DNA of 64,000 bases from Streptosporangiaceae bacterium NEAU-GS5 (GCA_017592665.1 JAGFNW010000027.1:28264-92263), one strand, 5' to 3'; shown: positions 26,718 to 48,854, counted from the stretch's first letter. The notes: generated from the letters alone by a model not told the origin. A program made the numbers and translations.

Positions 26718-28049
26718 GTGATCCTGGATCTGTTCTATCTGCTCGGCGCCGCGGTGCTGATCGCCGCGAACGCGGTTTTCGTCGCCGCGGAGTTCTCCCT
26801 GGTCACGGTCGAGCGCGCGCAGGTGGCCGAGCTCGCCGAAGCCGGCGACCGGGGCGCCCAGGGCATGCAGTCGGCGCTGCGCCGGCTGTCGTTCCACCTG
26901 TCGGGGGCGCAGCTCGGCATCACGATCACCTCGCTGCTGCTGGGGGTCCTCGCGGAGCCTGCCATCGCCGACCTGATCCGCCCGGCGTTCACCGCGATGG
27001 GCCTGCCGGAGGGGCTCGGCACCTCGGTCGCCGCCACCCTGGCGCTGTTCATCGCGACCGTGATCCAGATGATCCTCGGCGAACTCGTGCCGAAGAACGC
27101 AGCCCTGGCCAAACCCCTGCTCGTGGCCCGGCTGTCGATCCCGCCGCAACGGGTCTTCTCGGCCGTGTTCTCGCCTCTCATCCGGGCCTGCAACGCCACC
27201 GCCAACGCCATCGTGCGCGTCTTCGGCGCCGAGCCCCAAGACGAGCTCGCGTCGGCCCGTTCGCCCGACGAGCTGAGCCTGCTCGTGCGGCTGTCGGCCG
27301 AGGCCGGGGCGCTGCCGCCCAGCACGGCGGCCATGCTGCGCCGCGCCCTGCGCTTCGGCGACAAGACCGCGGGCGAGGCCATGACGCCGAGGACCTTCTG
27401 CGTGACCGTGCCCGAGCTCGCCACCGTCGCCGACTTCCTTGACGTGGCCTCACGCGAGCGGCATCTGCGGCTGCCGGTCGTCGGGGCGGAGGTGGACGAC
27501 ATCGTGGGCATCGCCGCGCTGCCCGGGGCGTACGCGATCGACGAGGCGGCGCGATCATCGACGCCGGTGACCCAGATCGTGCGGCACCCGGTGCGGGTGC
27601 CCGAGTCTGTGGCGCTGACCACGGTGCAGGAGCAGCTGATCGACGCCGACGCCGAGATGGCGGTCGTGGTCGACGAATATGGGGGATTCGCCGGCGTCAT
27701 CACCATTGAAGACCTTGCCGAAGAGCTGGTCGGCGAACTGGCCGACGAGTATGACCTTCCCGAAGAGGATTCGGCCGCGCCGGAGCCCGCACGACTCGCC
27801 CCCGAGACGTCCGTCGCCCTCCCCGCTCTGCTACGGGCCGACGAGGTGGAGGAGCGGACCGGTTTCCGGATGCCGGAGGGACCCTATGAGACGTTGGCCG
27901 GATTGGTGATCGCTCACCTCGGCCGCCTGGCCGAGCGCGGAGACGAGGTCGCCGTCGCCGGCTGGACCTTGCGGGTCGACTCGGTGCGCGGCCATCGGAT
28001 CGACCAGATCTCGCTGACCGCTCCCCGACGCGAAGGAGAGACGTCGTGA
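26718..28049 (+). CDS. hemolysin-family CNNM (DUF21)-CBS-CorC/HlyC transporter-associated protein
   Basis: GTG preceded by a strong RBS GGAGGAGG. N-terminal DUF21 TM domain 'AEFSLVTVERAQVAELAE', CBS pair and a CorC_HlyC C-terminus. Confidence 0.85.
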   Translation: MILDLFYLLGAAVLIAANAVFVAAEFSLVTVERAQVAELAEAGDRGAQGMQSALRRLSFHLSGAQLGITITSLLLGVLAEPAIADLIRPAFTAMGLPEGLGTSVAATLALFIATVIQMILGELVPKNAALAKPLLVARLSIPPQRVFSAVFSPLIRACNATANAIVRVFGAEPQDELASARSPDELSLLVRLSAEAGALPPSTAAMLRRALRFGDKTAGEAMTPRTFCVTVPELATVADFLDVASRERHLRLPVVGAEVDDIVGIAALPGAYAIDEAARSSTPVTQIVRHPVRVPESVALTTVQEQLIDADAEMAVVVDEYGGFAGVITIEDLAEELVGELADEYDLPEEDSAAPEPARLAPETSVALPALLRADEVEERTGFRMPEGPYETLAGLVIAHLGRLAERGDEVAVAGWTLRVDSVRGHRIDQISLTAPRREGETS

Positions 28050-29083
28050 GCCTTCTCGATCTCGCCATCGTCGTCGTCCTGCTGGCGGTCAACGGCTTCT
28101 TCGTGGGCGCGGAGTTCGCCCTGATCTCGGCGCGCCGTACGCAGATCGAGCCCGGCGCCGCGGCGGGTTCGCGCCGCGCCCGCGCCGTCCTGGCGGCCAT
28201 GGACGCCGTCCCGACCATGCTGGCAGCCGCGCAACTGGGCGTGACGCTGGCCTCGCTCGCGCTCGGCGCCGTAGCCGAGCCCGTGCTCGGGCACGCGCTC
28301 GAAACGCTCTTCGCGGACGTGGGCCTGCCCACGGAACTGGCCGATCCCGTGGGTCTCGCGCTCGCCCTGCTGGTGGTGGTGACGGCGCACGTGATCATCG
28401 GCGAGATGGTGCCCAAGAACCTGGCGCTGTCCGGCCCGGACACGGCCGCGTTGTGGCTGGTCCCACCGCTGCTCTTCGTCGCGCGGGTCACGCGCCCGCT
28501 GCTCGCCGCCATTCAGGCCACCGCCACGTTGGTCCTGCGCGGGCTGGGCATCCCTCCAACGTCGGAGGTGCGGTCGGTCTACACCTCAGACGAGCTGCCC
28601 GCGCTGATCGAAGAATCGCGCCGGCACCGGCTGCTCGACCAGCGCGAGCGCGACCGGATGCTGGCCACCCTGGCCCTGCATGCCCGGCCCGTACGCTCCG
28701 TGCTGGTGCCGATCGACCAGGTCGTCAGCGTGCCGGCGGCGACCGACGCGACCCGGCTCCAGCAATACACGGCGCGCCACGGCCACTCGCGGTTTCCCGT
28801 CCACGGAGACGATCCCCAGGAGCTGCGCGGATATCTGCACGCCCTCGACGCGCTCAACCGGCACGACCCGAAGAAGAACGGAAGCCGCGAGCCGCTTCCC
28901 GTCCGTCCCCTTCTGCGCATCGGCGAGACCGCCAGCCTGGCGGAGGTGCTGGCCACCCTGCGCGGCAGTCGCGCCCAGCTGGCCGTCGTCGTCGACGCCG
29001 ACGGGCAGGCCCTCGGCATCGTGACGCTCCGCGACGTCCTGGCCGGGCTCCTGCCCGAAAGAGGGCGTGAAGTGAGCGGCTGA
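28046..29083 (+). CDS. CNNM (DUF21)-CBS domain protein, paralogue of the upstream gene
   Basis: ATGA overlap with the upstream gene. 'GAEFALISARRTQIE' DUF21 domain plus CBS domains. Confidence 0.85.
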   Translation: MSLLDLAIVVVLLAVNGFFVGAEFALISARRTQIEPGAAAGSRRARAVLAAMDAVPTMLAAAQLGVTLASLALGAVAEPVLGHALETLFADVGLPTELADPVGLALALLVVVTAHVIIGEMVPKNLALSGPDTAALWLVPPLLFVARVTRPLLAAIQATATLVLRGLGIPPTSEVRSVYTSDELPALIEESRRHRLLDQRERDRMLATLALHARPVRSVLVPIDQVVSVPAATDATRLQQYTARHGHSRFPVHGDDPQELRGYLHALDALNRHDPKKNGSREPLPVRPLLRIGETASLAEVLATLRGSRAQLAVVVDADGQALGIVTLRDVLAGLLPERGREVSG

Positions 29084-29102: not shown

Positions 29103-30170
29103 TCAGTAGCGTGCGATCAGCGCTAGCCCCTGCTCGGTCGCGAGAGCGCCATCGGTGACGAAGCTGACGAAGGCGCCCGTGGCCATCGCCATCTCGATGA
29201 TGTCGTCGACGGCGTCGTGAGTGTCGCCGGCCGGACCGGCGACGAAGTGGTCGCCCTCGAAGTGGCCGGGCGCGTGATAGCTCTCTTCGACGACGAGATG
29301 AGCGCCCCGGCCCTGCTCGACCAGCGGCCAGATCTCGTCGACCCCGGTGACGTACAGCTTCGCGCTGCGGGCCCGGTCGAGCTCCTCCATGACCTGGTCC
29401 TGGCGGCGGGCGACGTAGTCGGCGATCGCCGGCTCGACCACTTCGGCGATCTGGGCCGGGCTCGCGGAGTCGTAGTTGCCGAGGACGCGCTCGGTGACCC
29501 GCTTGCCGAGGCCGCTCACCTCGTCGAGAAAGGCGTGATAGCGGTCCACGCCCAGCACGATGAGGGGCAGGTCGTCGTGCTTGACGACCTGCTCGGTGGC
29601 GTCGGCGACCTGCCGGAAGAACTGCCGGTGCCGCTCGTCGCGATGGGCGGAGGGGTTGATCCCCAGCCCGCCCGGCAACTGCTGAGCGCCGCCCGGACCT
29701 GTATGCGTCAGGGGGAAGCCGTCGCCGTGGATCTCCCGCACCTGGTCGCCGCTGCCGAGGAACATCCTCGTGTCGTTCTCCGACAGCGCGAGCACCCAGT
29801 AGTGCCGGGCCCGGTCGTAGGCGCGGACCAGATCACGGGTGTCGAACGTGTCGGCCAGAACGACCCGCTCGCCCACGGTGAACGGCAGGCTGAACGCGTG
29901 ATGTTCGCCCTCGGCGGCGTACAGTGCCAGCGCGTCGAGAGGGCGGAGGGTCGCCGACATCTCGGCCGCCTGCTCCAGCTCGGCCATGATGCGGCGGGCG
30001 CATTCCTTGTCGGTACGCTCGGTGAGCTGCCGCTCCGCCTCGGCGAGCAGGTTGCCCAGCCGGATGGGATCCTGCGCGTTCTCCGGGGCGTGCCGATGAG
30101 CCGGCATGAGCACGCTGACGGCAGGAGTGCTGTGGGGCTGCTGCAGCTTGATGATCTGATCGCGGTCCAC
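29103..30170 (-). CDS. release-factor-like (baeRF/eRF1-Pelota-like) domain protein, hypothetical
   Basis: 355 aa. Blocks 'VSVLMPAHR', 'TRMFLGSGDQV', 'LIVLGVDRY', 'AKLYVTGVDEIWPLVEQGRGAHLVVEE' and 'DDIIEMAMATGAFVSF' resemble the bacterial eRF1-like fold. Assigned from memory of the family, not a search. Confidence 0.5.
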   Translation of the reverse strand: MDRDQIIKLQQPHSTPAVSVLMPAHRHAPENAQDPIRLGNLLAEAERQLTERTDKECARRIMAELEQAAEMSATLRPLDALALYAAEGEHHAFSLPFTVGERVVLADTFDTRDLVRAYDRARHYWVLALSENDTRMFLGSGDQVREIHGDGFPLTHTGPGGAQQLPGGLGINPSAHRDERHRQFFRQVADATEQVVKHDDLPLIVLGVDRYHAFLDEVSGLGKRVTERVLGNYDSASPAQIAEVVEPAIADYVARRQDQVMEELDRARSAKLYVTGVDEIWPLVEQGRGAHLVVEESYHAPGHFEGDHFVAGPAGDTHDAVDDIIEMAMATGAFVSFVTDGALATEQGLALIARY

Positions 30171-30255
30171 GGTCCCCCCGAGATGTTTCGTCCGACATCA
30201 GGGCGATTCCGCCCTCAGACCACCGCCATGCATCCCCGGCAAAGCCTTTACCACC

Positions 30256-31122
30256 TCATGCGCCATCAATGCCGGCGCTATGCCGCAGAACTCGTTGCCC
30301 ATGCGGATCCACCACAGCCGTCACCAGATCGCGCACTTCGGGAGCGTGTAGGTAGTTCCTGACGAGATGAAAGTCGAACCGATGGATCCGCAATGGGTCA
30401 TGTTGCTCCACATTGTCGAAGCGACTGCGGAGATCGAATGGCAGCGCGACCAGATCGCCGACGTCGGCGAGGTTGATCCAGCGGCGTACCCCCGGCGGCC
30501 GCCCGCATCGGTCATTCATCGGACCGGGCTGAAGCCGTTGAAAGATCACCTTGTTCATGCCTAGCGGACTGCCGAGGGTGATCAGAAGGTCGACCTTGGG
30601 ATCGGGCTGTGCCCAGAGCGCCTCGTAGGCTATGACGCTGCCCAAAGAGTGCGCGATCACCACCTGAGCTTGATTGGCGCGGATGGTTTCGGCGACCGTG
30701 GTGCGAGCTCTTATGCGGAACGACTCATCGCGAGGGCTTAGATAGGTGGCGACCTCGCGGACGAATGTGGTCCCCAGCCGCCGAGCGGTCGTGCCGTAGC
30801 GCTCAGTCAGCCATTCGGCGGCCTGCCGCACCTTCGCTGTGGCAGGCCCTTGCGAGGTGTGCGGCACGCCCATGAGCGACTCCACCCAGGCGACCAGCAA
30901 CTCCTGCTCTTCAGGCTCCAGCAGCGTCACGTCGTCCACGCCTTGCGCCGTACCCCGGTGCAACACGTCCGCGTAGTACGACACCGTAACTCGCGGCGCG
31001 GATTCAACCGACAGCCACCTGCTCCAGTCTTGGCTGATGGCCTCAGTAGCGGCATGCACCGAACCATGTTCGATCAGGTAGGAGTAGTTCCCGATCCCAT
31101 GGACCCCGACAATCCGAGTCAC
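30256..31122 (-). CDS. alpha/beta-hydrolase (lipase/esterase-like, PGAP1/DUF676-like) with GxSxG nucleophile
   Basis: 'VGVHGIG' N-terminus, nucleophile elbow 'AHSLGSVIAYEAL', 'ITLGSPLGM'. Lies 85 bp upstream of, and co-directional with, the release-factor-like gene. Confidence 0.7.
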   Translation of the reverse strand: MTRIVGVHGIGNYSYLIEHGSVHAATEAISQDWSRWLSVESAPRVTVSYYADVLHRGTAQGVDDVTLLEPEEQELLVAWVESLMGVPHTSQGPATAKVRQAAEWLTERYGTTARRLGTTFVREVATYLSPRDESFRIRARTTVAETIRANQAQVVIAHSLGSVIAYEALWAQPDPKVDLLITLGSPLGMNKVIFQRLQPGPMNDRCGRPPGVRRWINLADVGDLVALPFDLRSRFDNVEQHDPLRIHRFDFHLVRNYLHAPEVRDLVTAVVDPHGQRVLRHSAGIDGA

Positions 31123-31333
31123 GCCTTCTCCTCGTCTGATATGAGGTGTGCGAATCGACCGTGCGTCATGGTCGAGGCTCGTCTATCCAGAACGAATCAG
31201 GCAATCACCACTCTTACGAAAGTTCATAATTTCCACTCACTTTCAAGGTGCGTCGACCATAATAGAATCCGACCGACTGCGGCGGAAGCGTAGCTGGTCA
31301 TTTCACATCACCTGGTTGTGGAGGTTAGCCAGC
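31123..31333. promoter_or_regulatory. AT-rich divergent promoter region between the alpha/beta-hydrolase operon and the flotillin/STAND operon
   Basis: About 210 bp at roughly 45-50% GC against a background above 70% ('ttacgaaagttcataatttccactcactttcaagg', 'ccataatagaatcc'). RBS GGAGG lies 9 nt before ATG 31334. Confidence 0.5.
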
Positions 31334-32668
31334 ATGAGTGGGGCGTGGGTGGCTTTATTGGTGATTGTGGGACTGCTGTTACTCGCGGCTCTGGTTCTCA
31401 GGCATTGGTGGGAGACTCCGTCGCCGCAGCATGCGGTGGTTTTTCCGGGGAGCGGGTTCGGCAAGAGCGGCGATGCCGCGAATCTACGTGTCGTGGTCGG
31501 GCGTCCGCGACTGGTCCTGCCACCACGCCGCCACCGCGGGCGACTGAATCTCGGGACGCGCAATATTGAAGTGACGCTCGACTGCATGACGAATCAGGCA
31601 TTAAGGGTGAGAGTGGTAATCAGTATCACATATCGGGTCGGTAATTCTCCCGAGCAGATCCGGCGCGCGGCACTGCGATTCCTGAAAGACCCGGAGAGGC
31701 TGCTGGAGGTGGCCGTCAAGAATCTTGTCCAGCACAACGTGCGTACCGTGGTCGGTGAGGGTCCATACACGGCCCTGGTCCTGAATCTGGGAGAAGTCAA
31801 CGGAAAGGTCAAGGAGCGCATCCGCCAGGACTTTCAAGCCTTCGGCCTGGTGCTCGAGAACGCGGGCTTCGTCACCATCGATGATGTGGACGGGCACGGC
31901 ACGGCGTTACGCCGAGCGGCGGAGGTGGAGGCCGAGCTCAAGAAGGTGGAAGCCGACCAGCGGTTGCTGGTCGAAACGGCCCGCGCGCGAGCCGAGGCCG
32001 CGGCGGAAGTGCACGATCACAACGTGCGCTCCCACGCACTGAGCCTGGAGATCGCCACGCTTGAGGCGGATCTGGAGCGTAAGAAGCAGGAGCTCGCGGC
32101 TCGAAACATTCAGCTCGACAAACAGGACGAGTTGAGTAAGGCCCAGATCGATCACAAGATCCAGGTCCTCCATGTCGACACACGCAGCTATGAAGTCAAA
32201 CGGCGTATTGATATGGAGAGGGCCGAGCGCGAGGCCCGGAATGCGACGGACATCGAGTTGCGTCACGCGCTCGACCGGGCCGACGCGGAGAAGGGGATGG
32301 TGGAGGCCAAAGCCGAGGCCGTCCGGATTAAGGAGCGAGTCCAGGGCCTCACACCCGCGGAGGCGCAGGCGTTGATCACCCTTGAGCTCGCCGGGAAAAT
32401 GGACAAGATAGCTGCCGCGGCGAAGGTGGAGCTACCCAGCCTGGAACGGGTGATCACGTCGAGCAGCGACTCCAAGACCCTGCTCGACAACCTGATCGGA
32501 TTCGGGCTCCCGATCGCCGAGATGGTGGGCGAGATGTTCAGCCGAATGCGGGAGGCCGACCCGGCCAAGACGATCACGACGGTCGTTCAGCCGGAGATCC
32601 AGCCGCCCACGAAGCATGCCGATGAGGGACAGGCCGACGGGCGTGACGACATGCCCTCCTCCCAATGA
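31334..32668 (+). CDS. flotillin-like SPFH/band-7 domain membrane protein
   Basis: N-terminal TM 'MSGAWVALLVIVGLLLLAALVL', SPFH core ('LRVVVGRP...ALRVRVVISITYRV...QDFQAFGLVLENAGFVTIDDV') and a long Glu/Ala/Arg-rich coiled coil, as in FloT/flotillins. ATG at 31334 in track ORF 31148..32668. Confidence 0.85.
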   Translation: MSGAWVALLVIVGLLLLAALVLRHWWETPSPQHAVVFPGSGFGKSGDAANLRVVVGRPRLVLPPRRHRGRLNLGTRNIEVTLDCMTNQALRVRVVISITYRVGNSPEQIRRAALRFLKDPERLLEVAVKNLVQHNVRTVVGEGPYTALVLNLGEVNGKVKERIRQDFQAFGLVLENAGFVTIDDVDGHGTALRRAAEVEAELKKVEADQRLLVETARARAEAAAEVHDHNVRSHALSLEIATLEADLERKKQELAARNIQLDKQDELSKAQIDHKIQVLHVDTRSYEVKRRIDMERAEREARNATDIELRHALDRADAEKGMVEAKAEAVRIKERVQGLTPAEAQALITLELAGKMDKIAAAAKVELPSLERVITSSSDSKTLLDNLIGFGLPIAEMVGEMFSRMREADPAKTITTVVQPEIQPPTKHADEGQADGRDDMPSSQ

Positions 32669-35600
32669 CCACGGGTCCGACGGCACGGGCAATTGTGATC
32701 GCGATCACGGGGTTCGTCTCGGACCGCTGGTCGGCCCTGCCGTTCGCCGCCGCCCGCGCGTACGCCATACGGCGCGCCCTGCTCTCGCACGGATATCACT
32801 GCGTGACGCACATCACCGCGAGACTCACGTCCGCCGAGTTCGGCACGCTGGTACGGAACGAACTTCGCCGCGCCGGGCCAGATGACACCCTTCTTATCCA
32901 TATCCTCACGCATGGCGACATTGCCAACAAAAGCGTCCTGTACGCCCTGGGCAGCGATGGCCTCCGTCACCCCGACACGGACGTAGAGGCGTGGATCAGG
33001 ACAGTACAGAACGTCGACGGCCACCCCTTCACCCTGTTCTTGCTCGATATGTGCTACGGCGGGACGATGGCCCGGCTCTCGTGGCAGGCGAGCATCGGCC
33101 GCGCCGACACGCGAGCCTGGGTCATCGCCGCCTGCCAGCCGGACGAGGCGGCTTTCGACGGCCGCTTCAGCCAGGCCGTGGCCACCGTGCTCGACCTGCT
33201 GAGACAGGGCGACCTCGAGATCGACCCAAGCCACGCGTATGTGCCGTTCGGCGCGATCGCCCGCGCCATCCGGCAGGAGGTGAACCGGCTCGCAGGAGAT
33301 GGCCTGCGCCAACAGGTCACCGCCACGAGCGAAGATCCCGGAGATGAGGCCGCGGCGCCTCCCTTTTTCCGCAACACGGCTCACACACGCAGACGCCTCC
33401 CGGAACCGGCGAGCCAGGGGCCGGCCGACGGGGGTGCCTGGATCGTGGCGTACTTCGCCGACCAGGCGGCCGGAGCGGCGGTCTCCGGCGAAGGGGGGGC
33501 GGACCGGCCGAGAGCGGGCCGTTTCACTGGACGCAGAGATCAGCTCGGTCATCTGGCACCCTGGGTCAACCGCCTGACGGCAGGTGATCTCGCCGTGGTC
33601 ACCGGTGGCCCTGGCAGCGGCAAATCGGCACTGCTCGGCGTGCTGGTGTGCGCCGCCCATCCACTGTTGTACGCGACGGCACGGGATCTGCTGGCCGAGG
33701 TGACCCCCCTGCCCGCGCCTGTGCTCGACGGGTTCGCCGCGGTGCACGTGGCACAACGCGGGCTCGCCACGGTGTGCGACGCCATCGGACGGCAGCTGGG
33801 GCTACCCGCGGATCTCTCGGCCGACGAGCTGATCGAGCGGGTGCTTGAACGCGACCGCCCACCGGTATTGGTGATCGACGGGCTCGACGAGGCCGACGAC
33901 GGGCCGGCCATCATGCGGCGGCTGCTGCTTCCCCTGGTGAGCACGCGACGTCCCGACGGGTGGGCCGCAGCGCGGCTGCTGGTAGGCAGTCGCACATACG
34001 AGGAGTTCGAGCCGCTGCTCGAACGCGCTCGCGTCGCCGGCAATCTCATCGACCTTGACGTCGTGCCACCTGAGGACCTGCGCAAGGACCTTGCCACGTA
34101 CATATTTCGGTTGCTTCAGGACGAGCCGGCCTACCTGCGGCACGGCGCCGTGCAGGGCGCGTTCGCCGGCGCCGTGGCGGAGACTCTCACAGCGCCGCAT
34201 GGAAAAGGGCGGCAGCAGGGGGAGTTCCTCGTCGCCGGACTGTACACACGTCATTTCGTCGCCGCACACGCTCACGCTCCCATGACCGACCCAGATCGGG
34301 CCCGGGCGCTGGGACAGCGCGCGCCGAGAACGCTGGCCGAGGTGTTCGAGTTGGACATCGCGGATCGGCCTGCCTTGCGCGAGCTGCTGACCGTTCTCGC
34401 CACGGCGCGTGAACCCGGCATGCCAGTCGGCGTACTGTTCCGGATGATCACCGCCGGGCAACGTCCAGGCAGGGGCGCGAGGACAGGAACGAGCGCTGAG
34501 GTGACGACGGGCTCGCCGGCAGAAACGGGCGCCGCCGCGGACCGCATGACCATCGGACGAGTACGCGCGATGCTGCGCGAGGGTCGGCATTACCTGCGTC
34601 AGTCGACCGACACGCGGGACGGCACCACCCTCTATCGCCTATTTCACCGCAGCTTGATCGACCACCTCGCCGTGCCGGGGATAGCAGGCGACAGCCTGGA
34701 GGCGATGCTCGGGATACTGGGGCCGGCGTCCGCCCGTGACTGGGAGATGGCCGAGCCATACCTGCTCGATCACGCATGGGCATACGCGGTCGCCGCCGGA
34801 CGCGCGGCCGAGTTGCTCGATGATCCCGAATACCTGCTGAATCTCACTTCCGGGCCGCTGACGGCCGTCCTGCGAGAAGCCGGAGATCTCCCGCTCCTGT
34901 CAGCGTTCGCCGAAGTCCCGCCGATCGGGGCGGCGCCGCTGTCGGAACGGCGGTATGCGCTGGCCCTCGCGGCCGCCCGGGCGGACCGCACGCAATTCGC
35001 GGCACGCGCCGCGCGGCCACCCACCACGCAGCCGCTGCCGTGGCAACCTCTCTGGTCGAAGGGAACGCCCGTCGCGGCTGGATCACCGAGTGCGTCCACG
35101 GCCTCGCCTGCGTCCGTGCCGGCTCCGCCCTCGCCGGCCGGCGATTTCGAGCTGGCCAAGAGCAGAAGGAAACAGGAGGTCCAGGCGCTGGCCACGGCCT
35201 CGATCGAAGGGCGGCCCGTTCTCGCGGCGGCCGGCGACGACGGCCGAATACAGCTTTGGGATCTCGCCTCCCGGAAGGTCTCACTGCCACCGCTCACCGG
35301 CCACGCCGGGTCCGTGAATGCGATCGCCTGCTTCACGACGGGCGGACGGGCGAAGGCCGTCACGGCCGGATCCGACGGCACCTTACGGATATGGGACCTG
35401 GCCAGGCGGCAGTCCGAGCACATCTGGAACCTTGGTCAGGAGAGTTTTCTGCGCGGCGTGGCGTGCGCCTGGGTCGGCGACCAACAGGTAGCGGTAGTGG
35501 CCAGCGGTGACGGCTGGCTTCGCATGTGGGACGTGGTCCAGGGACGGCCCGTCGGCGGGCGGCTGGGCGAGCGGCCGGGCATTCTCACTGGTGTGGCCTG

Positions 35601-36738
35601 CGCGCAGGCTCACGGCCGTGCCGTCGCCGTCACCACGGACGAGGACGGGGAGGTGTCCGCAGTCGATCTCGGGAGTGGCGAGGTGATCGGCCGGCACGAG
35701 TATGCGCACGACGGTTCCGCGCGCGCGGTGGCCTGCACCGCGGCGGCCGATCCCCCGCTGGTCGTGACGACCGGCGACGGCGGCGTGATCCGTGTCTGGA
35801 AGCTGACCGACACTCTTGTCCCCCTCTTCAAGCTCACGGGACATCGGGACACGGTCGAGGCGGTGGCGTGCGCCACGCTTGGCGGCCGGGACGTGGTGAT
35901 CAGCGGCGACGTCGACGGCAGGGTCATCGTCTGGGATGTGGCGGAGGGGGTTCAGATCTACCAGGCTCGGCTGCGCCGCGGCTTGGTTCGGGCCGTGGCC
36001 GGCACCCTTCTCGGCACACGACCCTTCGTCCTGACCGCCGCTTCCGGGGGCGCGCTGGCCGGGCGGGATTTGAGCGAAGCGCTGTCCGGCCGGCAAGCAG
36101 CCGAGCGATCGACCGGCAGCGCGGCGGCTGCGGCCCCTCGTGGCGTCCAGATCACCCGGCTCGACGTCTTGAGTGATGAGACCGTGCGCCTCGTCTTCGC
36201 GCACGCCGGCGCCATCATTGTGGACCCGCGAACTGGTAAGGCCATCGACGGCGAGGTGGCCATGCGGGAACCCGCCGCAAATCCGCGGCAGGACGATGAC
36301 TCCCCCGTTGCCGCGACATCCGCGACGTTCTCCTTGCATGGTCGCACTATGGTGGCCGAGGTCGGTGACGACCCTCGGACCCTGCGGCTACGCGAAGCGA
36401 CATCCCACGCTCCATCACGCCCCGTTGATGATCATGGGCGCCCGTTGGGCCGTCACGAGAGCCGCATAACGACGGTGTCGGTCGCCAAGCCGGTTGGTGG
36501 CGCACCGCCCCTGCTGTTCAGCGGTGACGTGGACGGCACCGTGCGGGTCTGGGATCCGGTGCACGGGCGTGCAATGCCGGGCTTCACCTTGCCGGGGGAG
36601 ATCGTCGGTATCACGCCGCTGCGAGGGGAACTGGTCCTGGTCGACATCGGCGGTGAGATCATCGCGCTGCACCGTGCCACGACCACCGAGCACCGCGCAT
36701 CCGCCGATGGAACGGGACCCAGAGCGTCGGTCACATAA
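32665..36738 (+). CDS. caspase-like (peptidase C14) / NACHT ATPase / WD40 beta-propeller STAND protein
   Basis: 1356 aa. ATG overlaps the flotillin stop (ATGA 32665-32668). Caspase His 'IHILTHGD' (H83) and Cys 'FLLDMCYGG' (C130). NACHT Walker A 'VVTGGPGSGKS' (~aa 315) and Walker B 'PVLVIDGLDEADD' (~aa 405). From about aa 835 onward, at least 12 WD40 repeats ('RIQLWDL', 'TLRIWDL', 'WLRMWDV', 'VIRVWKL', 'RVIVWDV', 'TVRVWDP'). Confidence 0.9.
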   Translation: MTTGPTARAIVIAITGFVSDRWSALPFAAARAYAIRRALLSHGYHCVTHITARLTSAEFGTLVRNELRRAGPDDTLLIHILTHGDIANKSVLYALGSDGLRHPDTDVEAWIRTVQNVDGHPFTLFLLDMCYGGTMARLSWQASIGRADTRAWVIAACQPDEAAFDGRFSQAVATVLDLLRQGDLEIDPSHAYVPFGAIARAIRQEVNRLAGDGLRQQVTATSEDPGDEAAAPPFFRNTAHTRRRLPEPASQGPADGGAWIVAYFADQAAGAAVSGEGGADRPRAGRFTGRRDQLGHLAPWVNRLTAGDLAVVTGGPGSGKSALLGVLVCAAHPLLYATARDLLAEVTPLPAPVLDGFAAVHVAQRGLATVCDAIGRQLGLPADLSADELIERVLERDRPPVLVIDGLDEADDGPAIMRRLLLPLVSTRRPDGWAAARLLVGSRTYEEFEPLLERARVAGNLIDLDVVPPEDLRKDLATYIFRLLQDEPAYLRHGAVQGAFAGAVAETLTAPHGKGRQQGEFLVAGLYTRHFVAAHAHAPMTDPDRARALGQRAPRTLAEVFELDIADRPALRELLTVLATAREPGMPVGVLFRMITAGQRPGRGARTGTSAEVTTGSPAETGAAADRMTIGRVRAMLREGRHYLRQSTDTRDGTTLYRLFHRSLIDHLAVPGIAGDSLEAMLGILGPASARDWEMAEPYLLDHAWAYAVAAGRAAELLDDPEYLLNLTSGPLTAVLREAGDLPLLSAFAEVPPIGAAPLSERRYALALAAARADRTQFAARAARPPTTQPLPWQPLWSKGTPVAAGSPSASTASPASVPAPPSPAGDFELAKSRRKQEVQALATASIEGRPVLAAAGDDGRIQLWDLASRKVSLPPLTGHAGSVNAIACFTTGGRAKAVTAGSDGTLRIWDLARRQSEHIWNLGQESFLRGVACAWVGDQQVAVVASGDGWLRMWDVVQGRPVGGRLGERPGILTGVACAQAHGRAVAVTTDEDGEVSAVDLGSGEVIGRHEYAHDGSARAVACTAAADPPLVVTTGDGGVIRVWKLTDTLVPLFKLTGHRDTVEAVACATLGGRDVVISGDVDGRVIVWDVAEGVQIYQARLRRGLVRAVAGTLLGTRPFVLTAASGGALAGRDLSEALSGRQAAERSTGSAAAAAPRGVQITRLDVLSDETVRLVFAHAGAIIVDPRTGKAIDGEVAMREPAANPRQDDDSPVAATSATFSLHGRTMVAEVGDDPRTLRLREATSHAPSRPVDDHGRPLGRHESRITTVSVAKPVGGAPPLLFSGDVDGTVRVWDPVHGRAMPGFTLPGEIVGITPLRGELVLVDIGGEIIALHRATTTEHRASADGTGPRASVT

Positions 36739-36802
36739 TCCCTGTCGGGCCTACCTCAGCTATTGGCACGACCGCCGCGGACCAGCACGAACCGTCCTTG
36801 GC

Positions 36803-38308
36803 TCATTGTGCGAGTTCCACCGTCGGCATCCCGGTGAGGGCGATGAGAGCTTCGGCGAAGGCGTTGAGCGCTGCGGGGGAAACGTCGCCGGGCGACACGT
36901 CGGGTGAGATCTGCACGGTCAGGCCTCCTCGCGCATTGGCGCGTATGCCGATCCGCGTCGCGTCGAGGCCGACGATGACGCGGAACCAGGTTCGAACAGT
37001 TTCGTCCAGATCGTCGGTGAGCGGCAGGGGTGCCATCCGGTCGGCACCGACCGACTCAAGGATCGTCCACTCCTGTCCGCCGAGCTCGTCCAGTAACCGG
37101 GGGATGTCAGTGCTGACGACATAAAGGCAGCGCATCCCGACCCGAGACGCCGACCCCGTATGACAACCGGCCACCAAGGACCCCACCCCGAACGACGTCA
37201 GGGCCGCATTCACCCGAGGTGACTTGACGAAGTCCTTCGGCAGTCGCCAGGCAACGCTCAGTTCGATCAATTTGGTATCGGCGGAGTGGTGTATGGAGGC
37301 GCCGTTCACCACCCTGCCGTCGAGGGCGGGCGCGGCCATCGCGATCACCTGCTCGGCCACCGAATCGAGGTCTCCTGCTCTGAGGGCACTCAAGACCGGT
37401 CCCCACGCATCTGCATGTAGGTGGCCGAGCAACTCCCAGGCACACCCGCTGAGAATCGCTTGACGGGTGCGTTCACGGTGTTCCCGGGTCTCGGACCCGG
37501 GACAGGCCGCGACCAGGCCTTTGATCAGGCATGCCGCCAGTGGACCGAGATACGACCCGATTTCCGCGACGGGCACGCCGTAGTCACGGGCGCGGCGATG
37601 CAGCGTGTCCAGATCGCAGTCGGCCTGCGCGATCCAACCCTCGACGCGCAGGCGTTCCATGGCGCTGCCGGTGCCGTAAAGCGAGGGCAGCGCGCGAGCC
37701 AACCGCGTCAGTCCCTCCGCATGCTCGCGGATCTGGGTCAGGACGGCCGAGCGCCTGGCTTCGCGGCGCAGTTCGCTATGCGGATCACGCTCGATGACCG
37801 CGGACTCCACTCCCACGATCTCCAGGAAGCCGCCTGCCAACGTCGTCGCCCACTGCTCGACGATCGGAGCGATCTCGAAGCCGTGCCGTCTGACCTGCTC
37901 GTAGTCGAGATCAGCGAGTAACCTGCGAACGCGTCCGTCGAACTCGTTACGCAGCGTGGCCTCGTCCGTGAGCGTGCCGATGTCGTATTCCTCGACCCAT
38001 TCGATCAGTTCCTCGTCGTCGACGAAGGCCAGCCGCACCAGCGCGGTGACGGACAGTTGGACGAGCGCGCCGTCTCGCAGCCGAATCTGCGGGATCGTCG
38101 ACGAGTGGCGTACGACGCTCCGACTGAAGGTGACGATTTCGAGATGGCCGAGCAGCGGAACCCCGGACAGCGGGCCATGACGCCCCGGGCCGAGGACTCG
38201 GCGGCGAGGCCGGCCGTTGTGTTTGACCACCACACGTTCTGACGCGTCAACGGGGAATGCGCGCCTCGGCCATTCCTCCCAGGTGATCAGTAACCCAAGT
38301 GACATCAT
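36803..38308 (-). CDS. soluble SPFH/band-7-like domain protein with large C-terminal helical region
   Basis: N-terminal region 'VVVKHNGRPRRRVLGPGRHGPLSGVPLLGHLEIV...IRLRDGALVQLSVTALVRLAFVD...GGFLEIVGVESAVIERDP' follows the SPFH consensus. No TM segment. Convergent with the STAND gene, 64-bp gap. Confidence 0.6.
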   Translation of the reverse strand: MMSLGLLITWEEWPRRAFPVDASERVVVKHNGRPRRRVLGPGRHGPLSGVPLLGHLEIVTFSRSVVRHSSTIPQIRLRDGALVQLSVTALVRLAFVDDEELIEWVEEYDIGTLTDEATLRNEFDGRVRRLLADLDYEQVRRHGFEIAPIVEQWATTLAGGFLEIVGVESAVIERDPHSELRREARRSAVLTQIREHAEGLTRLARALPSLYGTGSAMERLRVEGWIAQADCDLDTLHRRARDYGVPVAEIGSYLGPLAACLIKGLVAACPGSETREHRERTRQAILSGCAWELLGHLHADAWGPVLSALRAGDLDSVAEQVIAMAAPALDGRVVNGASIHHSADTKLIELSVAWRLPKDFVKSPRVNAALTSFGVGSLVAGCHTGSASRVGMRCLYVVSTDIPRLLDELGGQEWTILESVGADRMAPLPLTDDLDETVRTWFRVIVGLDATRIGIRANARGGLTVQISPDVSPGDVSPAALNAFAEALIALTGMPTVELAQ

Positions 38309-38372
38309 CGCTCATTTCACACGCGGCCAGTGAGACCGGCCCGGCGGCGCTCACCGGAACGGTTTCGCCTCG

Positions 38373-39683
38373 TCACATTTCCCGGGTGTACAGATCGTCA
38401 TCTGCCATGCGCCGCAACCGGCGTGATCGCTGCTCCTGGTAGTACCGGTCGTCGGCGAGCTCGAGCCGGGCCATGTCGCGCATGTGCCGTCCGCGCTCGC
38501 GCATTCTTGTCCGCGCATTCGCGATCTTCTCGTCCTTGGTGAGGATGCGCAGCTCGGAGGCTTCCTCCAGCTCGGCCTCCCGGGCGGCGAGCAGATTCTC
38601 GTAAGGGCTTTTCCCGCCACTTCCCATGAGCGCCTTCCCGGCCACCGGAAGAACGTCGACCAGAATGATCAGCAAGGCGAGCACGAGATGGCGGAAGAAC
38701 ACCGAAGTGTGCTCACCACTCAGCGTCGACAACGCCTCCATACGAATGAGCAGTCCGTCGACCTCACGGTTGGCCGACTCCTCCAACGCGATTCTCTTGT
38801 CACGGTCGGCCTCGAGTTCGCGTTGTTTCAGACGCAACCTCTCTTCCTCTTCTTTGAGCGAGCGATCCTCGGCTGCTATCTTCTGGTCGATGCCCTTCAG
38901 CGTCGCGTTGAGATCGCGGACCGTATCCTGCTGGTCTCGCATCTGACTCTTCTTCTGTAGGGCCGAAGGGCCCTCGCCGGGAAGATGAGTGTTACTCTTG
39001 CCATCGATCTCATCGTCAAGCCTGGTCTGCAGCTTGTCTAGCTGTTCACCGGCATCCTTGATCTTTTGCTCCTGTCCCGCATGCTGATGCCGCAATTGCC
39101 GCAGGCGTTCCGAGGGCTGTCCGGCCGCCTTTATCTGCTGGTCCAGCGCGTTTATCTGCTGTGTTAGGTCGCTTCGGCCGACTGCCCTGTCGGCCTCGTC
39201 CATCCGCTCCCTCCTGATGGCGGCGACCTCGGCGGTTACCTCGGGCTCGAAGATGACCAGGATGAGCGGCTCGGAGATCGTTAGCCCCAAGATCACTGAC
39301 AGGAAAAGACGTGGAGCCAACGCCCCGATTTTCGCCTTACCGGACATCTTGGACCGATAGCTAGATACGAGCCACCGGTCAAGATTGAATATCGCGACAG
39401 CCCACAGCGCGCCAACGATCGCATTCACGGCGAAAGATGTCTTGAACGCCAAGGAGACAGAAACCACCATCGCCGTGCCGGCCATCACTGCCGTGGTGAC
39501 GACCCCGCCCCCCAATCCCTGATATCGGGTCGTCTCGGCTCGTGGACACCGGTCGAGTATGTCGCGGTCAGCACCGCTCGCAAAGATCATGAATCGCTCG
39601 ACGAAGCCGCGAGGGCCCTTCAAGCGGACCGGGGTGATGGATGAACGCATATCGGCGGACCCATTCACCGAATTGAGCGACAT
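38373..39683 (-). CDS. DUF4407-like membrane protein with long coiled coil
   Basis: N-terminus 'FASGADRDILDRCPRAETTRYQGLGGGVVTTAVMAG...FNLDRWLVSSY' matches the DUF4407 pattern (LSGA...P.ER.R...G..IL). Then 3 TM and about 200 aa of Glu/Arg/Gln coiled coil. Start uncertain (three in-frame Met). Confidence 0.65.
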   Translation of the reverse strand: MSLNSVNGSADMRSSITPVRLKGPRGFVERFMIFASGADRDILDRCPRAETTRYQGLGGGVVTTAVMAGTAMVVSVSLAFKTSFAVNAIVGALWAVAIFNLDRWLVSSYRSKMSGKAKIGALAPRLFLSVILGLTISEPLILVIFEPEVTAEVAAIRRERMDEADRAVGRSDLTQQINALDQQIKAAGQPSERLRQLRHQHAGQEQKIKDAGEQLDKLQTRLDDEIDGKSNTHLPGEGPSALQKKSQMRDQQDTVRDLNATLKGIDQKIAAEDRSLKEEEERLRLKQRELEADRDKRIALEESANREVDGLLIRMEALSTLSGEHTSVFFRHLVLALLIILVDVLPVAGKALMGSGGKSPYENLLAAREAELEEASELRILTKDEKIANARTRMRERGRHMRDMARLELADDRYYQEQRSRRLRRMADDDLYTREM

Positions 39684-47912: not shown

Positions 47913-48222
47913 GATGCGGACCATGTTCGTGATCACGCTTGCAGGATCCGGTGAGCTGGGGCGGCTATGTGGCCTCTGCGGATTTCTGGAACCGGACGTT
48001 GCAGAACTGGCAGTCGGAATTCCTTGCCGTCCTGTCCATGGTCGCGTTGTCGATCTATCTGCGCCAGCGCGGATCACCCGAGTCGAAGCCGGTCGGCACC
48101 CCGCACGAAACGACGAGCGAGGAGAATTAGGGCAGCGCCACCGCGTGTCGACGCTTTCCACGAGGCTGGTAGGGAGGGCAAGCCGAGTGTGCCGGCATGA
48201 AAGGTGGGGGAAGGGCTGGATT

Positions 48223-48783: not shown

Positions 48784-48854
48784 ACGGCCGGGCATGAGCC
48801 CGAAGTGGCCCGGTGCACGCCCCCCATGACGGGAATCCACAATGATGGACCTTC

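What the first reader, a model, noticed from the sequence alone, without database searches (positions are those of the whole stretch)
29103..31122. Alpha/beta-hydrolase (GHSLGS) plus release-factor-like protein operon, divergent from the flotillin/STAND operon
Two co-directional minus-strand genes are 85 bp apart. The first (30256-31122) is a lipase/esterase-like alpha/beta-hydrolase with nucleophile elbow AHSLGS. The second (29103-30170) is a 355-aa protein whose conserved blocks resemble the eRF1/Pelota fold, i.e. the bacterial 'baeRF'-type release-factor-like families. Those families have been linked in comparative genomics to conflict and translation-quality-control systems.

The pair is transcribed divergently from the same AT-rich promoter region as the flotillin/STAND operon. 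This suggests co-regulation: a phospholipase-like membrane effector plus a ribosome- or translation-sensing component.
Basis: partly seen in the sequence, partly recalled or inferred. Interest (0 to 1): 0.65.

Follow-up and report, generated by a model that had tools for sequence, protein, structure and literature searches.

The report
Hibernation-factor gene beside caspase-linked hydrolase

Summary
The ORFs, the 85-bp gap and the AHSLGS motif are all present.

**Release-factor-like gene (29103-30170, minus strand).** It is a clear Balon-family ribosome hibernation factor:
- Pfam baeRF_family3, E 5e-43.
- Full-length match to the solved Psychrobacter Balon, E 3e-33.
- The AlphaFold model hits Balon first, then aRF1, eRF1 and Pelota.

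**Hydrolase (30256-31122, minus strand).** It has an alpha/beta fold with an invariant Ser159/Asp/His252. It belongs to the actinobacterial clade that sits beside caspase-STAND genes, in 38 of 80 genomic loci. Kaur et al. (2020) predicted this pairing. Evans et al. (2025) showed that one such hydrolase is a zymogen cut twice by its caspase into a death effector.

The adjacent STAND protein carries a caspase domain (His83/Cys130). STAND-linked hydrolases share two [Q/M/L]-Gly motifs, at Q60-G61 and Q91-G92 here, in loops of the model.

**The pairing is not conserved.**
- 0 of 80 hydrolase loci carry a Balon gene.
- 0 of 86 Balon loci carry the hydrolase or the STAND gene.
- Third-position GC is 0.90 for Balon and 0.74 for the hydrolase, which matches the flotillin-to-DUF4407 island.

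**Verdict.** Two known kinds lie side by side. The hydrolase-STAND link holds. The proposed hydrolase plus release-factor functional pair (operon) does not.

The parts
29103..30170 (-). Balon-type (baeRF family 3, AOC03_06830 family) ribosome hibernation factor gene, 355 aa. It is a host-like core gene and not part of the neighbouring immune module.
   Evidence: Pfam PF18845: E 5e-43, 147.8 bits against a cut-off of 31.5. NCBIfam NF052287: E 3.5e-93, 313 bits against a cut-off of 330, covering profile positions 3-361 of 361. phmmer against PDB 8rd8_B (Balon): E 3.3e-33, residues 8-355 against 7-369. AF2 model pLDDT 82.4; Foldseek best hits are 8rdw_B/8rd8_B at E 3.6e-29, then Msmeg1130, aRF1, eRF1 and Pelota. 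No GGQ or NIKS motif; the family motif H25-R26-x-x-P29-x-N31-x-Q33-D34-P35 is kept. GC3 is 0.90.
30171..30255 (-). 85-bp spacer between the hydrolase stop and the Balon start. The compositional switch from island to core falls at about this point.
   Evidence: GC 63.5%. No terminator-like or promoter-like site. The fold is no more stable than shuffled sequence, z -0.26. Co-transcription can be neither shown nor excluded.
30256..31122 (-). Cytoplasmic alpha/beta-hydrolase, 288 aa, of the caspase-associated clade; a putative protease-activated death effector (zymogen). Candidate catalytic residues are Ser159 (30646-30648), Asp220 or Asp223, and His252, with the oxyanion-region motif GVHG at residues 6-9.
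30847..30945 (-). Segment coding residues Q60 to G92. It is bounded by two [Q/M/L]-Gly motifs: Q60-G61 at 30940-30945 and Q91-G92 at 30847-30852. These are the candidate caspase cleavage sites that would excise helix 70-84.
   Evidence: Both motifs occur in 24 of 24 STAND-linked hydrolases and in 1 of 42 non-linked ones. Both lie in loops of lower pLDDT that flank helix 70-84. The layout parallels the two R|G sites (R73, R117) of LcHydrolase (PMC12642450). Cleavage itself is inferred, not shown.
31123..31333 (.). Divergent AT-rich intergenic region between the hydrolase and the flotillin/caspase-STAND operon.
   Evidence: 51.7% GC against 69.7% for the window; lowest 0.13% of 211-nt stretches. 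No sigma-70 consensus match, which is uninformative for actinobacteria.
31334..32668 (+). Flotillin-like SPFH/Band_7 membrane protein, 444 aa from ATG 31334 (the mechanical ORF starts at 31148). It is translationally coupled to the STAND gene through an ATGA overlap at 32665-32668.
   Evidence: PF01145, E 2.5e-13. An N-terminal hydrophobic helix follows the GGAGG-ATG start. Only two real homologues exist, and both sit in the same four-gene cassette.
32665..36738 (+). [quoted passage not shown] It is the presumed sensor and activator of the hydrolase.
   Evidence: AAA_16, NACHT and WD40 hits. NCBIfam caspase_w_EACC1, E 1.8e-7. H83-G84 and D128-x-C130 are invariant in the 20-sequence alignment A2 and kept in all 37 hydrolase-linked STAND proteins printed. 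The profile hits 163 caspase and paracaspase chains in PDB, best E 4.5e-6, with the catalytic His aligned. 13 of 20 members hit Peptidase_C14.
36803..38308 (-). Second, divergent SPFH-like protein, 501 aa, and a conserved member of the flotillin/STAND cassette.
   Evidence: Band_7, E 1.4e-4, just below the cut-off. A protein of similar length (487-504 aa) sits at the same position in L169 and L170; the L169 one gives the same weak Band_7 hit. GC3 is 0.78.
38373..39683 (-). DUF4407 membrane protein, 436 aa, and a conserved member of the cassette. It marks the right end of the low-GC3 island.
   Evidence: PF14362, E 6e-69. The same position is occupied in L169 and L170. A DUF4407 gene lies directly upstream of the caspase-STAND and hydrolase genes in two Lentzea loci, L019 and L033.

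Best explanation
The two minus-strand genes are neighbours, not partners.

**Gene 29103-30170** encodes a Balon-type ribosome hibernation factor. By homology it is a catalytically dead aeRF1-like protein. Under stress it would occupy the ribosomal A site independently of mRNA, together with EF-Tu-GDP, and so park and protect ribosomes. It has the base composition of the host core genome.

**Gene 30256-31122** encodes the alpha/beta-hydrolase partner of the caspase-like protease that forms the N-terminus of the STAND/WD40 protein across the AT-rich spacer.

The likely mechanism runs as follows. The first two points are shown here; the last two are inferred.
1. The WD40-STAND sensor carries a caspase domain with an intact His/Cys dyad (shown).
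2. Hydrolases of this clade nearly always sit beside such a caspase-STAND gene, and they alone carry two conserved X-Gly motifs in surface loops that flank one helix (shown).
3. On sensing an invader or a stress signal, the STAND protein oligomerises and its caspase cuts the hydrolase at or near Q60|G61 and Q91|G92, removing helix 70-84. This converts an inactive zymogen into an active Ser159-Asp-His252 esterase, lipase or peptidase that kills or arrests the cell (inferred, by analogy with LcCaspase and LcHydrolase in Evans et al. 2025).
4. Because the sensor is co-translated with a flotillin and the island also encodes a second SPFH-like protein and a DUF4407 membrane protein, the target may be a membrane lipid (weakly inferred).

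The hydrolase, flotillin, STAND, SPFH-like and DUF4407 genes form one low-GC3 island, about 30.2-39.7 kb, that abuts the Balon gene.
For: **Balon identity**
- Pfam, NCBIfam and PDB sequence matches.
- The structure model matches Balon first, then Msmeg1130, aRF1, eRF1 and Pelota.
- No GGQ or NIKS motif, and the conserved N-terminal motif is present.
- Function is taken from PMC10901736.

**Hydrolase**
- Invariant H8, S159, D220 and H252.
- Confident alpha/beta fold.

**Link to the caspase-STAND gene**
- 38 of 80 genomic loci carry a homologue of the window's STAND protein. In 36 of them the nearest aligned piece lies within 1.6 kb of the hydrolase, and in 37 the alignment covers the caspase catalytic region.
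- All four orientations occur; 25 are directly upstream on the same strand, often with a 4-nt overlap.
- The pair also travels on plasmids, between a Tn3 transposase and an integrase in Streptomyces, and next to an annotated 'caspase family protein' in Sinorhizobium.
- In Streptomyces loci the pair sits with MoxR and VMAP/EAD2 genes, which is the context in which Kaur et al. described the caspase/hydrolase pair.
- Caspase dyad evidence.
- [Q/M/L]-G at both sites in 24 of 24 linked hydrolases against 1 of 42 unlinked, in loops of the model.
- Hydrolase identity and caspase identity to the window's proteins correlate weakly (rho 0.38, p 0.02).
- Published mechanism: PMC12642450.

**No hydrolase-Balon link**
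- 0 of 80 and 0 of 86 in the reciprocal tests.
- GC3 z-scores: Balon +0.37, hydrolase -2.30, flotillin -2.07, STAND -1.33, SPFH-like -1.66, DUF4407 -2.12.
Against: **Possible co-transcription.** The two genes are co-directional and only 85 bp apart, with no recognisable terminator. Read-through transcription of Balon from the hydrolase promoter cannot be excluded.

**Hydrolase not always beside the cassette.** The orthologous flotillin/caspase-STAND cassettes in Acrocarpospora and Sinosporangium have no hydrolase next to them. In Sinosporangium the hydrolase most like this one (70% identity) is an orphan among housekeeping genes. Adjacency here could therefore be secondary, and the caspase may have other substrates.

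**Cleavage sites differ from the published case.** The candidate motifs are Q/M/L-Gly, 31 residues apart. The published sites are Arg-Gly, 44 residues apart, and Gln at P1 is unusual for caspase-fold proteases. No cleavage was tested.

**Gaps in homology evidence.** PADLOC 2023 models recognise neither gene. The Balon score is 17 bits under NCBIfam's equivalog cut-off.

**Weak island evidence.** The island boundaries rest on composition alone. There are no flanking repeats, no tRNA, and no island-free relative for comparison.
Confidence: 0.72

Rival explanations
1. The hydrolase and the baeRF protein form a two-gene operon that works as one conflict or translation-quality-control system: the release-factor-like protein senses ribosome state, and the hydrolase is the membrane effector, co-regulated with the flotillin/STAND operon.
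For: The genes share a strand, lie 85 bp apart and have no predicted terminator between them. Burroughs and Aravind proposed that baeRF-1 proteins arose in the context of conflicts that target the ribosome (PMC6514570). The hydrolase is part of a conflict system.
Against: There is no co-occurrence in either direction: 0 of 80 hydrolase loci and 0 of 86 Balon loci. Third-position GC changes sharply between the two genes. The same cassette in two other genera lacks Balon. The nearest Balon homologues are stand-alone genes in unrelated contexts. The family has an established hibernation role that needs no partner enzyme (PMC10901736).
Confidence: 0.06
2. The hydrolase is an ordinary housekeeping esterase, lipase or peptidase that happens to lie next to the STAND operon. 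It is constitutively active and is not a protease-gated effector.
For: About half of the family (the 'N-type' clade, 40-45% identical) sits in a conserved housekeeping neighbourhood of HAD phosphatases, ArfB, PhoD and an MFS transporter, with no STAND gene. The closest Sinosporangium homologue is an orphan among GlnE, TetR and PfkB genes. The orthologous flotillin/STAND cassettes in two genera lack an adjacent hydrolase.
Against: This protein belongs to the STAND-linked clade by identity. It carries both clade-specific X-Gly motifs (24 of 24 against 1 of 42). Its island-like composition matches the cassette, and it shares a divergent promoter region with a caspase-bearing gene. The caspase/hydrolase pairing is a published rule.
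Confidence: 0.14
3. The Balon gene has been secondarily recruited to the island. Read-through from the hydrolase promoter would raise Balon when the immune module is induced, so that ribosomes hibernate during an abortive-infection response.
For: Only the gene arrangement supports this. Balon can bind ribosomes that are still translating (PMC10901736), which would suit a rapid shutdown.
Against: The arrangement is seen in this genome only, with no conservation. No regulatory element was detected. The model is purely speculative.
Confidence: 0.05

Closest known systems
Balon (AOC03_06830) of Psychrobacter urativorans; PDB 8RD8, 8RDV, 8RDW; Helena-Bueno et al., Nature 2024 (PMC10901736)
   Same: Same length class (355 against 369 aa) and alignable end to end, E 3.3e-33. 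It is the best structural match, E 3.6e-29. Same Pfam family, baeRF_family3. It lacks GGQ and NIKS. The N-terminal H-R-x-x-P-x-N-x-Q-D-P-I block and the GFP..H.GPGG..SA[HY]RDERHRQFFR block are conserved.
   Different: Only 26-27% identical. It scores 313 bits, under the NCBIfam equivalog cut-off of 330. The local motif reads HRHAP, where Balon has HREHP. No RaiA, Hsp20 or other stress gene is adjacent; the nearest neighbours are two CNNM/CorC genes and the immune island. No close orthologue is known; the next best hit is 47% identical. Ribosome binding is untested.
LcHydrolase/LcCaspase of Lysobacter capsici AZ78, a protease-activated alpha/beta-hydrolase zymogen (Evans et al., bioRxiv 2025, PMC12642450)
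   Same: An alpha/beta-hydrolase of about 290 aa with no assigned family, encoded next to a caspase-like Cys protease. The catalytic Cys is at 129 there and at 130 here. The family is described as widespread in Actinobacteria and Pseudomonadota, with proteases fused to beta-transducin (WD40) or STAND sensors. Both have two conserved X-Gly sites in the N-terminal third that bracket a short helical segment. Structural neighbours are lipases and peptidases.
   Different: The motifs here are Q/M/L-Gly at 60/61 and 91/92, against R|G at 73 and 117. Here the caspase is the N-terminal domain of a 1357-aa STAND-WD40 protein. The hydrolase is transcribed divergently rather than downstream. A flotillin gene is coupled to the sensor. 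Direct sequence comparison with LcHydrolase was not possible, and cleavage, toxicity and substrate are untested here.
Caspase/alpha-beta-hydrolase pairing in the NTP-dependent conflict systems (vWA-MoxR/VMAP, GAP1) of multicellular bacteria (Kaur, Burroughs, Iyer and Aravind, eLife 2020, PMC7159879)
   Same: It follows the same rule: a caspase-superfamily domain is accompanied by a neighbouring alpha/beta-hydrolase gene. Streptomyces members of this very hydrolase clade sit beside MoxR, VMAP/EAD2 and NB-ARC-TPR genes.
   Different: This locus has no vWA, MoxR or VMAP component. Instead the caspase is fused to a STAND-WD40 protein and embedded in a flotillin, SPFH-like and DUF4407 cassette that the paper does not mention.
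[quoted passage not shown]
   Same: The domain order is caspase, then P-loop STAND, then WD40 beta-propellers.
   Different: That survey does not mention a partner hydrolase or flotillin. Clade membership was not tested here.
Msmeg1130/Rv2629, the mycobacterial Balon homologues (NCBIfam NF052288; PDB 8V9J, 8V9K, 8V9L)
   Same: Same fold, and the second-best structural matches (E 5e-21). They are also actinobacterial.
   Different: A different subfamily: only 49 bits against NF052288, whose cut-off is 480.

Membership tests
Balon / baeRF family 3 ribosome hibernation factors | Sequence membership in Pfam PF18845 (baeRF_family3) above the gathering score | tested here: met
   147.8 bits against 31.5, E 5e-43, covering profile positions 1-168 of 168.
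Balon / baeRF family 3 ribosome hibernation factors | NCBIfam NF052287 (AOC03_06830 family RHF) equivalog cut-off | tested here: inconclusive
   E 3.5e-93 with full-length coverage (3-361 of 361), but 313 bits against a curated cut-off of 330. The sister model NF052288 gives only 49 bits. The protein is clearly a family homologue; equivalog status is not certified.
Balon / baeRF family 3 ribosome hibernation factors | Three-domain aeRF1-like fold most similar to ribosome-bound Balon | tested here: met
   phmmer against 8rd8_B: E 3.3e-33 over residues 8-355. AF2 model (pLDDT 82.4): Foldseek 8rdw_B E 3.6e-29, Msmeg1130 E 5e-21, aRF1 E 1.6e-15, eRF1 and Pelota below those.
Balon / baeRF family 3 ribosome hibernation factors | Absence of the GGQ (peptide release) and NIKS (stop-codon) motifs, and presence of the family's decoding-centre motif region | tested here: met
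   There is no GGQ or NIKS. The local 'GGAQQ' is not conserved in the family: at positions 163-164 the commonest residues are Ala and Pro. H25, R26, P29, N31, Q33, D34 and P35 are each kept in at least 117 of 120 homologues and are present here. They align with THREHPANDQDPI of Balon.
Balon / baeRF family 3 ribosome hibernation factors | Binds the A site of vacant and translating 70S ribosomes with EF-Tu-GDP under stress | not testable with these tools
   This needs ribosome co-sedimentation or cryo-EM.
Caspase-associated alpha/beta-hydrolase zymogens (Kaur 2020; Evans 2025) | Alpha/beta-hydrolase fold with a Ser-Asp-His triad | tested here: met
Caspase-associated alpha/beta-hydrolase zymogens (Kaur 2020; Evans 2025) | A neighbouring gene encodes a caspase-like protease with an intact His/Cys dyad | tested here: met
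   The STAND gene 32665-36738 has an N-terminal domain with H83 and C130. Its profile hits caspases in PDB (E 4.5e-6), and 13 of 20 members hit Peptidase_C14. It lies 1.5 kb away on the other side of the divergent spacer, with only the flotillin gene between them.
Caspase-associated alpha/beta-hydrolase zymogens (Kaur 2020; Evans 2025) | The association is conserved across genomes and independent of gene order | tested here: met
   38 of 80 loci carry the association, in four orientations, and it also occurs on plasmids. However, the two orthologous flotillin/STAND cassettes lack an adjacent hydrolase.
Caspase-associated alpha/beta-hydrolase zymogens (Kaur 2020; Evans 2025) | Two conserved protease cleavage sites (R|G in the Lysobacter clade) that release a short middle fragment | tested here: inconclusive
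   Two conserved sites exist at the equivalent region and are specific to the STAND-linked clade (24 of 24 against 1 of 42). They read Q/M/L-Gly rather than R-Gly, and lie 31 rather than 44 residues apart. Cleavage was not tested.
Caspase-associated alpha/beta-hydrolase zymogens (Kaur 2020; Evans 2025) | Sequence homology to the characterised LcHydrolase | not testable with these tools
   The LcHydrolase sequence is not held, and the paper has no supplement held as text. Indirect evidence: 27% identity, E 4e-18, to a Sinorhizobium plasmid hydrolase that overlaps a 'caspase family protein' gene.
Caspase-associated alpha/beta-hydrolase zymogens (Kaur 2020; Evans 2025) | Toxic only after cleavage | not testable with these tools
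   This needs fragment-expression toxicity and protease assays.
   0 of 80 hydrolase loci (+/-10 kb) contain a Balon homologue. 0 of 86 Balon loci (574 kb in total) contain the hydrolase, STAND or flotillin gene.
   PGAP1 scores 16.4 bits against 24.3, Abhydrolase_6 18.4 against 26.3 and LCAT 13.4 against 21. Lipase_3 and DUF676 are not reported. NCBIfam gives no hit.

The most novel reading that the evidence does not exclude
The hydrolase is the executioner of a rare, undescribed, membrane-raft-organised 'bacterial apoptosome'. This would be a four-gene cassette found so far in only three Streptosporangiaceae genera: a flotillin coupled to a caspase-STAND-WD40 gene, plus an SPFH-like gene and a DUF4407 gene. 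Its caspase would license the hydrolase by cutting after Gln, Met or Leu before Gly, a P1 preference not reported for caspase-fold proteases, and would release a phospholipase-type activity at flotillin microdomains. A bolder add-on is that the neighbouring Balon gene is read through, so that ribosomes are parked during the response.
Probability: 0.2. Interest if true: 0.6.

Novelty: new member of a known kind. Interest (0 to 1): 0.3.

Why it matters
The result separates two things that look like one operon.

**Balon.** It adds a divergent actinobacterial member to the Balon hibernation-factor family, only 26-27% identical to the solved protein and with no close orthologue.

**Hydrolase.** It places the hydrolase in the newly characterised class of protease-gated death effectors. 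Three leads can be tested:
- The actinobacterial STAND-linked clade carries Q/M/L-Gly where the Lysobacter protein has Arg-Gly, so the associated caspases may differ in specificity.
- The same hydrolase family has a sister clade that lacks both motifs and sits in a housekeeping neighbourhood. This gives a natural pair for asking how a zymogen effector evolved from, or into, an ordinary enzyme.
- Here the caspase-STAND sensor is welded to a flotillin and travels with an SPFH-like and a DUF4407 protein. That points to the membrane as the place to look for the hydrolase's still unknown substrate.

None of this changes the picture of either family. The claimed link between a ribosome-sensing factor and a lipase effector is not there.

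Tried and rejected
- **PADLOC defence models.** No hit for the hydrolase, Balon, flotillin or SPFH-like protein, and only weak repeat hits for the STAND and DUF4407 proteins.
- **PDB sequence search with the hydrolase.** Only chance-level MglB hits.
- **Promoter and terminator scan, and folding of the 85-bp spacer.** Nothing above the shuffled background, so co-transcription stays open.
- **Rfam over the whole window.** Only one tRNA, at 49.7 kb.
- **Island ends.** No convincing direct or inverted repeats and no tRNA at the borders. The boundaries rest on composition only.
- **The window's own Balon gene in the assembly index.** Not on record.
- **AlphaFold-database fold search.** The library was unavailable.
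- **Supplement of Evans et al.** Not held, so there is no LcHydrolase sequence.
- **The 'GGAQQ' in the Balon middle-domain loop as a cryptic GGQ.** Rejected, because the Gln positions are not conserved in 120 homologues.
- **An HxlR homologue near one N-type hydrolase locus (L076), as a hint that the window's hydrolase occupies the ancestral N-type position.** Rejected, because none of the N-type context genes is in the window.
- **Literature on DUF4407 or on SPFH proteins in anti-phage systems.** Nothing relevant in the library.
- **Co-evolution of hydrolase and caspase.** Only a weak correlation that is confounded by phylogeny (rho 0.38).


Full report
**1. Observation**

The window is about 70% GC. 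A 100% protein match identifies the source as Streptosporangiaceae bacterium NEAU-GS5, locus tags J5X84_32020 and J5X84_32025.

The two minus-strand ORFs exist as described:
- 30256-31122 codes 288 aa.
- 29103-30170 codes 355 aa.
- They are separated by 85 bp.

Both start at a GTG behind a purine-rich ribosome-binding site, and both show the codon-position GC pattern of real genes.

The flotillin ORF on the other strand most likely starts at ATG 31334, which follows GGAGG and precedes a transmembrane helix, not at 31148. That leaves a 211-bp divergent spacer of 51.7% GC, the most AT-rich stretch of the whole window.

**2. The release-factor-like gene is a Balon-type ribosome hibernation factor**

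- Pfam gives baeRF_family3 at E 5e-43, with weaker hits to six other baeRF families.
- NCBIfam gives the 'AOC03_06830 family ribosome hibernation factor' at E 3.5e-93 over the whole model. The score of 313 bits is just under the equivalog cut-off of 330.
- AOC03_06830 is Balon of Psychrobacter urativorans. The protein aligns end to end with the solved chain 8rd8_B at E 3.3e-33.
- An AlphaFold model (pLDDT 82.4) finds the three Balon entries first (E 3.6e-29). The mycobacterial Balon homologues come next, then aRF1, eRF1, Pelota and Dom34.

The protein lacks GGQ and NIKS. A local 'GGAQQ' is not conserved in 120 homologues, whereas the family's N-terminal HRxxPxNxQDP block and the GPGG...SAHRDERHRQFFR block are kept.

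According to Helena-Bueno et al., Balon occupies the A site of vacant or translating ribosomes with EF-Tu-GDP during cold shock and stationary phase. It occurs in about 20% of bacteria, usually in stress operons. Burroughs and Aravind had already predicted that baeRF-1 proteins are non-catalytic translation blockers linked to HPF.

This copy is isolated. Its best relatives are only 44-47% identical and are mostly from Chloroflexi. Its immediate neighbours are two convergent CNNM/CorC genes.

**3. The hydrolase**

No curated family reaches threshold: PGAP1 scores 16.4 bits against 24.3, and NCBIfam gives nothing. The protein nevertheless has 631 homologues. Nearly all are actinobacterial, and sources name them 'serine peptidase' or 'GPI inositol-deacylase'.

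- H8 (in GVHG), S159, D220 or D223, and H252 are invariant.
- The AlphaFold model is confident (pLDDT 89.7).
- There is no signal peptide or membrane helix, so it acts inside the cell.

**4. What the hydrolase travels with**

I fetched 80 genomic loci encoding relatives, each with 10-kb flanks, and searched them with the window's neighbouring proteins.

- A Balon homologue was found in 0 of 80.
- A homologue of the STAND protein was found in 38 of 80. In 36 of these the nearest aligned piece is within 1.6 kb of the hydrolase, and in 37 the alignment covers the caspase catalytic region.
- The orientation varies: 25 upstream on the same strand (often with a 4-nt overlap), 9 convergent, 3 downstream on the same strand, 1 divergent.

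Clustering all neighbours splits the family in two:
- **S-type.** The clade closest to the window's protein, always beside a caspase-STAND gene.
- **N-type.** A clade 40-45% identical, in a conserved Streptosporangiales neighbourhood: HAD phosphatase, ArfB, hydrolase, HAD, PhoD, FG-GAP, MFS transporter. It has no STAND gene.

In Streptomyces S-type loci the pair sits with MoxR and VMAP/EAD2 genes. The pair also occurs on plasmids, between a Tn3 transposase and an integrase in Streptomyces. In Sinorhizobium pSinB it overlaps an annotated 'caspase family protein'; that hydrolase is 27% identical to this one, E 4e-18.

**5. The protease**

The N-terminal 240 residues of the STAND protein contain ...ILTHGD... 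(His83) and ...LLDMCYGG... (Cys130).

- These residues are kept in all 37 hydrolase-linked STAND proteins compared and are invariant in the 20-sequence alignment.
- A profile of the domain retrieves 163 caspase and paracaspase chains from the PDB, best E 4.5e-6, with the catalytic His aligned.
- 13 of 20 members reach Pfam Peptidase_C14 hits.

The remainder of the protein is a P-loop STAND NTPase followed by WD40 propellers. This matches the Apaf-1-like bacterial architecture noted in PMC13581612.

**6. Known biology that fits**

Kaur et al. (2020) stated that in these conflict systems a caspase domain is always accompanied by a neighbouring alpha/beta-hydrolase gene.

Evans et al. (2025) reported the following:
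- The Lysobacter hydrolase is an inactive zymogen that its caspase cuts at R73|G and R117|G.
- The substrate is unknown and is not nucleic acid.

In my alignment every S-type hydrolase (24 of 24) has [Q/M/L]-Gly at two positions, Q60-G61 and Q91-G92 here, against 1 of 42 N-type sequences. In the model both motifs lie in lower-confidence loops that flank helix 70-84. This is the layout expected for a double-cut zymogen. The residue before Gly differs from the published Arg, and cleavage is inferred only.

**7. Why the two genes are not a pair**

- The forward test gave 0 of 80.
- The reverse test is also negative. Six loci of the nearest Balon homologues and 80 metagenomic Balon loci, 574 kb in all, contain no hydrolase, STAND, flotillin, CNNM or DUF4407 homologue.
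- GC3 is 0.90 for Balon and its CNNM neighbours (z about +0.3). It is 0.74-0.80 for five consecutive genes from the hydrolase to DUF4407 (z from -1.3 to -2.3). The compositional border therefore falls in or near the 85-bp spacer.
- The flotillin has only two real homologues. Both lie in the same four-gene cassette in Acrocarpospora and Sinosporangium: Band_7, then caspase-STAND-WD40 with a 4-nt overlap, then a convergent SPFH-like gene and a DUF4407 gene. The STAND proteins are 59% and 42% identical to the window's and keep the caspase dyad. Neither locus has Balon.

**8. Caveats**

- Those two cassettes also lack an adjacent hydrolase, and Sinosporangium's 70%-identical hydrolase is an orphan among housekeeping genes. 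Adjacency of the hydrolase to this particular cassette is thus seen only here, although it fits the general rule.
- There is no terminator or promoter signal in the spacer, so read-through into Balon cannot be excluded.
- Island borders have no repeats or tRNA.
- PADLOC models miss the system.

**9. Verdict**

Both protein identities and the hydrolase-STAND link hold. The hydrolase/release-factor functional pair (operon) and the 'ribosome-sensing component' do not.

Each gene is a new member of a known kind: the Balon family, and the caspase-gated alpha/beta-hydrolase effectors. Residual novelty lies in three places:
- the Q/M/L-Gly motifs;
- the S-type/N-type split of the hydrolase family;
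- the rare flotillin/SPFH/DUF4407 cassette around the sensor, for which I found no literature.

Interest is 0.30.

Noticed in passing
L023, L028, L035, L040, L043-L045, L047, L048, L051, L057-L059, L061, L063, L064, L067, L069, L075, L076, L079 (for example L067:9346-9771, minus strand): In the non-STAND ('N-type') paralogous hydrolase loci of Streptosporangiales, the gene directly upstream of the hydrolase and divergent from it is a 141-aa RF-1-domain protein with GPGGQGVN, an ArfB-like peptidyl-tRNA hydrolase (Pfam PF00472, E 1.4e-20). A hydrolase of this family therefore sits beside a 'release-factor-like' gene in a second, unrelated way. This is probably just synteny within one order, because Nonomuraea has insertions between the two genes.
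   Followed up: partly
window 31334-39683; L169:1186-9064; L170:10001-17991: A four-gene cassette is conserved in three Streptosporangiaceae genera: flotillin/Band_7, then caspase-STAND-WD40 with a 4-nt overlap, then a convergent SPFH-like gene of about 500 aa and a DUF4407 gene. The flotillin has no other real homologues among 5.8 billion clusters. I found no literature on it.
   Followed up: partly
window 31148-31333: The mechanical flotillin ORF starts at GTG 31148, 25 bp from the hydrolase start. The likely true start is ATG 31334 (GGAGG ribosome-binding site, then a hydrophobic helix), which gives 444 aa and a 211-bp divergent spacer.
   Followed up: partly
window 30256-30315 (hydrolase residues about 270-288): The window's hydrolase has an 18-20-residue C-terminal tail (DPHGQRVLRHSAGIDGA) that is absent from most homologues and has pLDDT below 50. 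It lies right at the compositional border. It may be read-through created when the island joined the core genome.
   Followed up: no
L019:3761-5218 and L033:3295-5193: In two Lentzea genomes a DUF4407 gene lies directly upstream of the caspase-STAND and hydrolase genes on the same strand. DUF4407 thus recurs with this module outside the flotillin cassette.
   Followed up: partly
L088:1-10104 (Streptomyces sp. NBC_01591 plasmid): A 1606-aa 'AAA family ATPase' and an overlapping 'serine peptidase' (a hydrolase homologue) sit between a Tn3-family transposase and a tyrosine recombinase. The two-gene module is therefore mobile.
   Followed up: no
L002:9896-10819 (Sinosporangium siamense): The second-closest relative of the window's hydrolase (70% identity, both X-Gly motifs present) is an orphan among GlnE, TetR, PfkB and ADH genes. 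The same genome carries the flotillin/caspase-STAND cassette on another contig, so the hydrolase may act in trans there.
   Followed up: partly
window 26718-29083: Two tandem, overlapping CNNM/CBS (CorC/HlyC-type) transporter genes lie convergent to the Balon gene. Only the first carries the CorC_HlyC C-terminal domain.
   Followed up: no
window 47785-49765: A second patch of low GC3 (gene 47785-48783 has GC3 0.70, z -2.8) lies next to the only tRNA of the window, tRNA-Leu(taa) at 49692-49765. It may be another inserted element.
   Followed up: no
window 24700-26397 (minus strand): A 565-aa ORF with strong coding signal (GC3 0.95) has no Pfam family at E <= 0.01.
   Followed up: no
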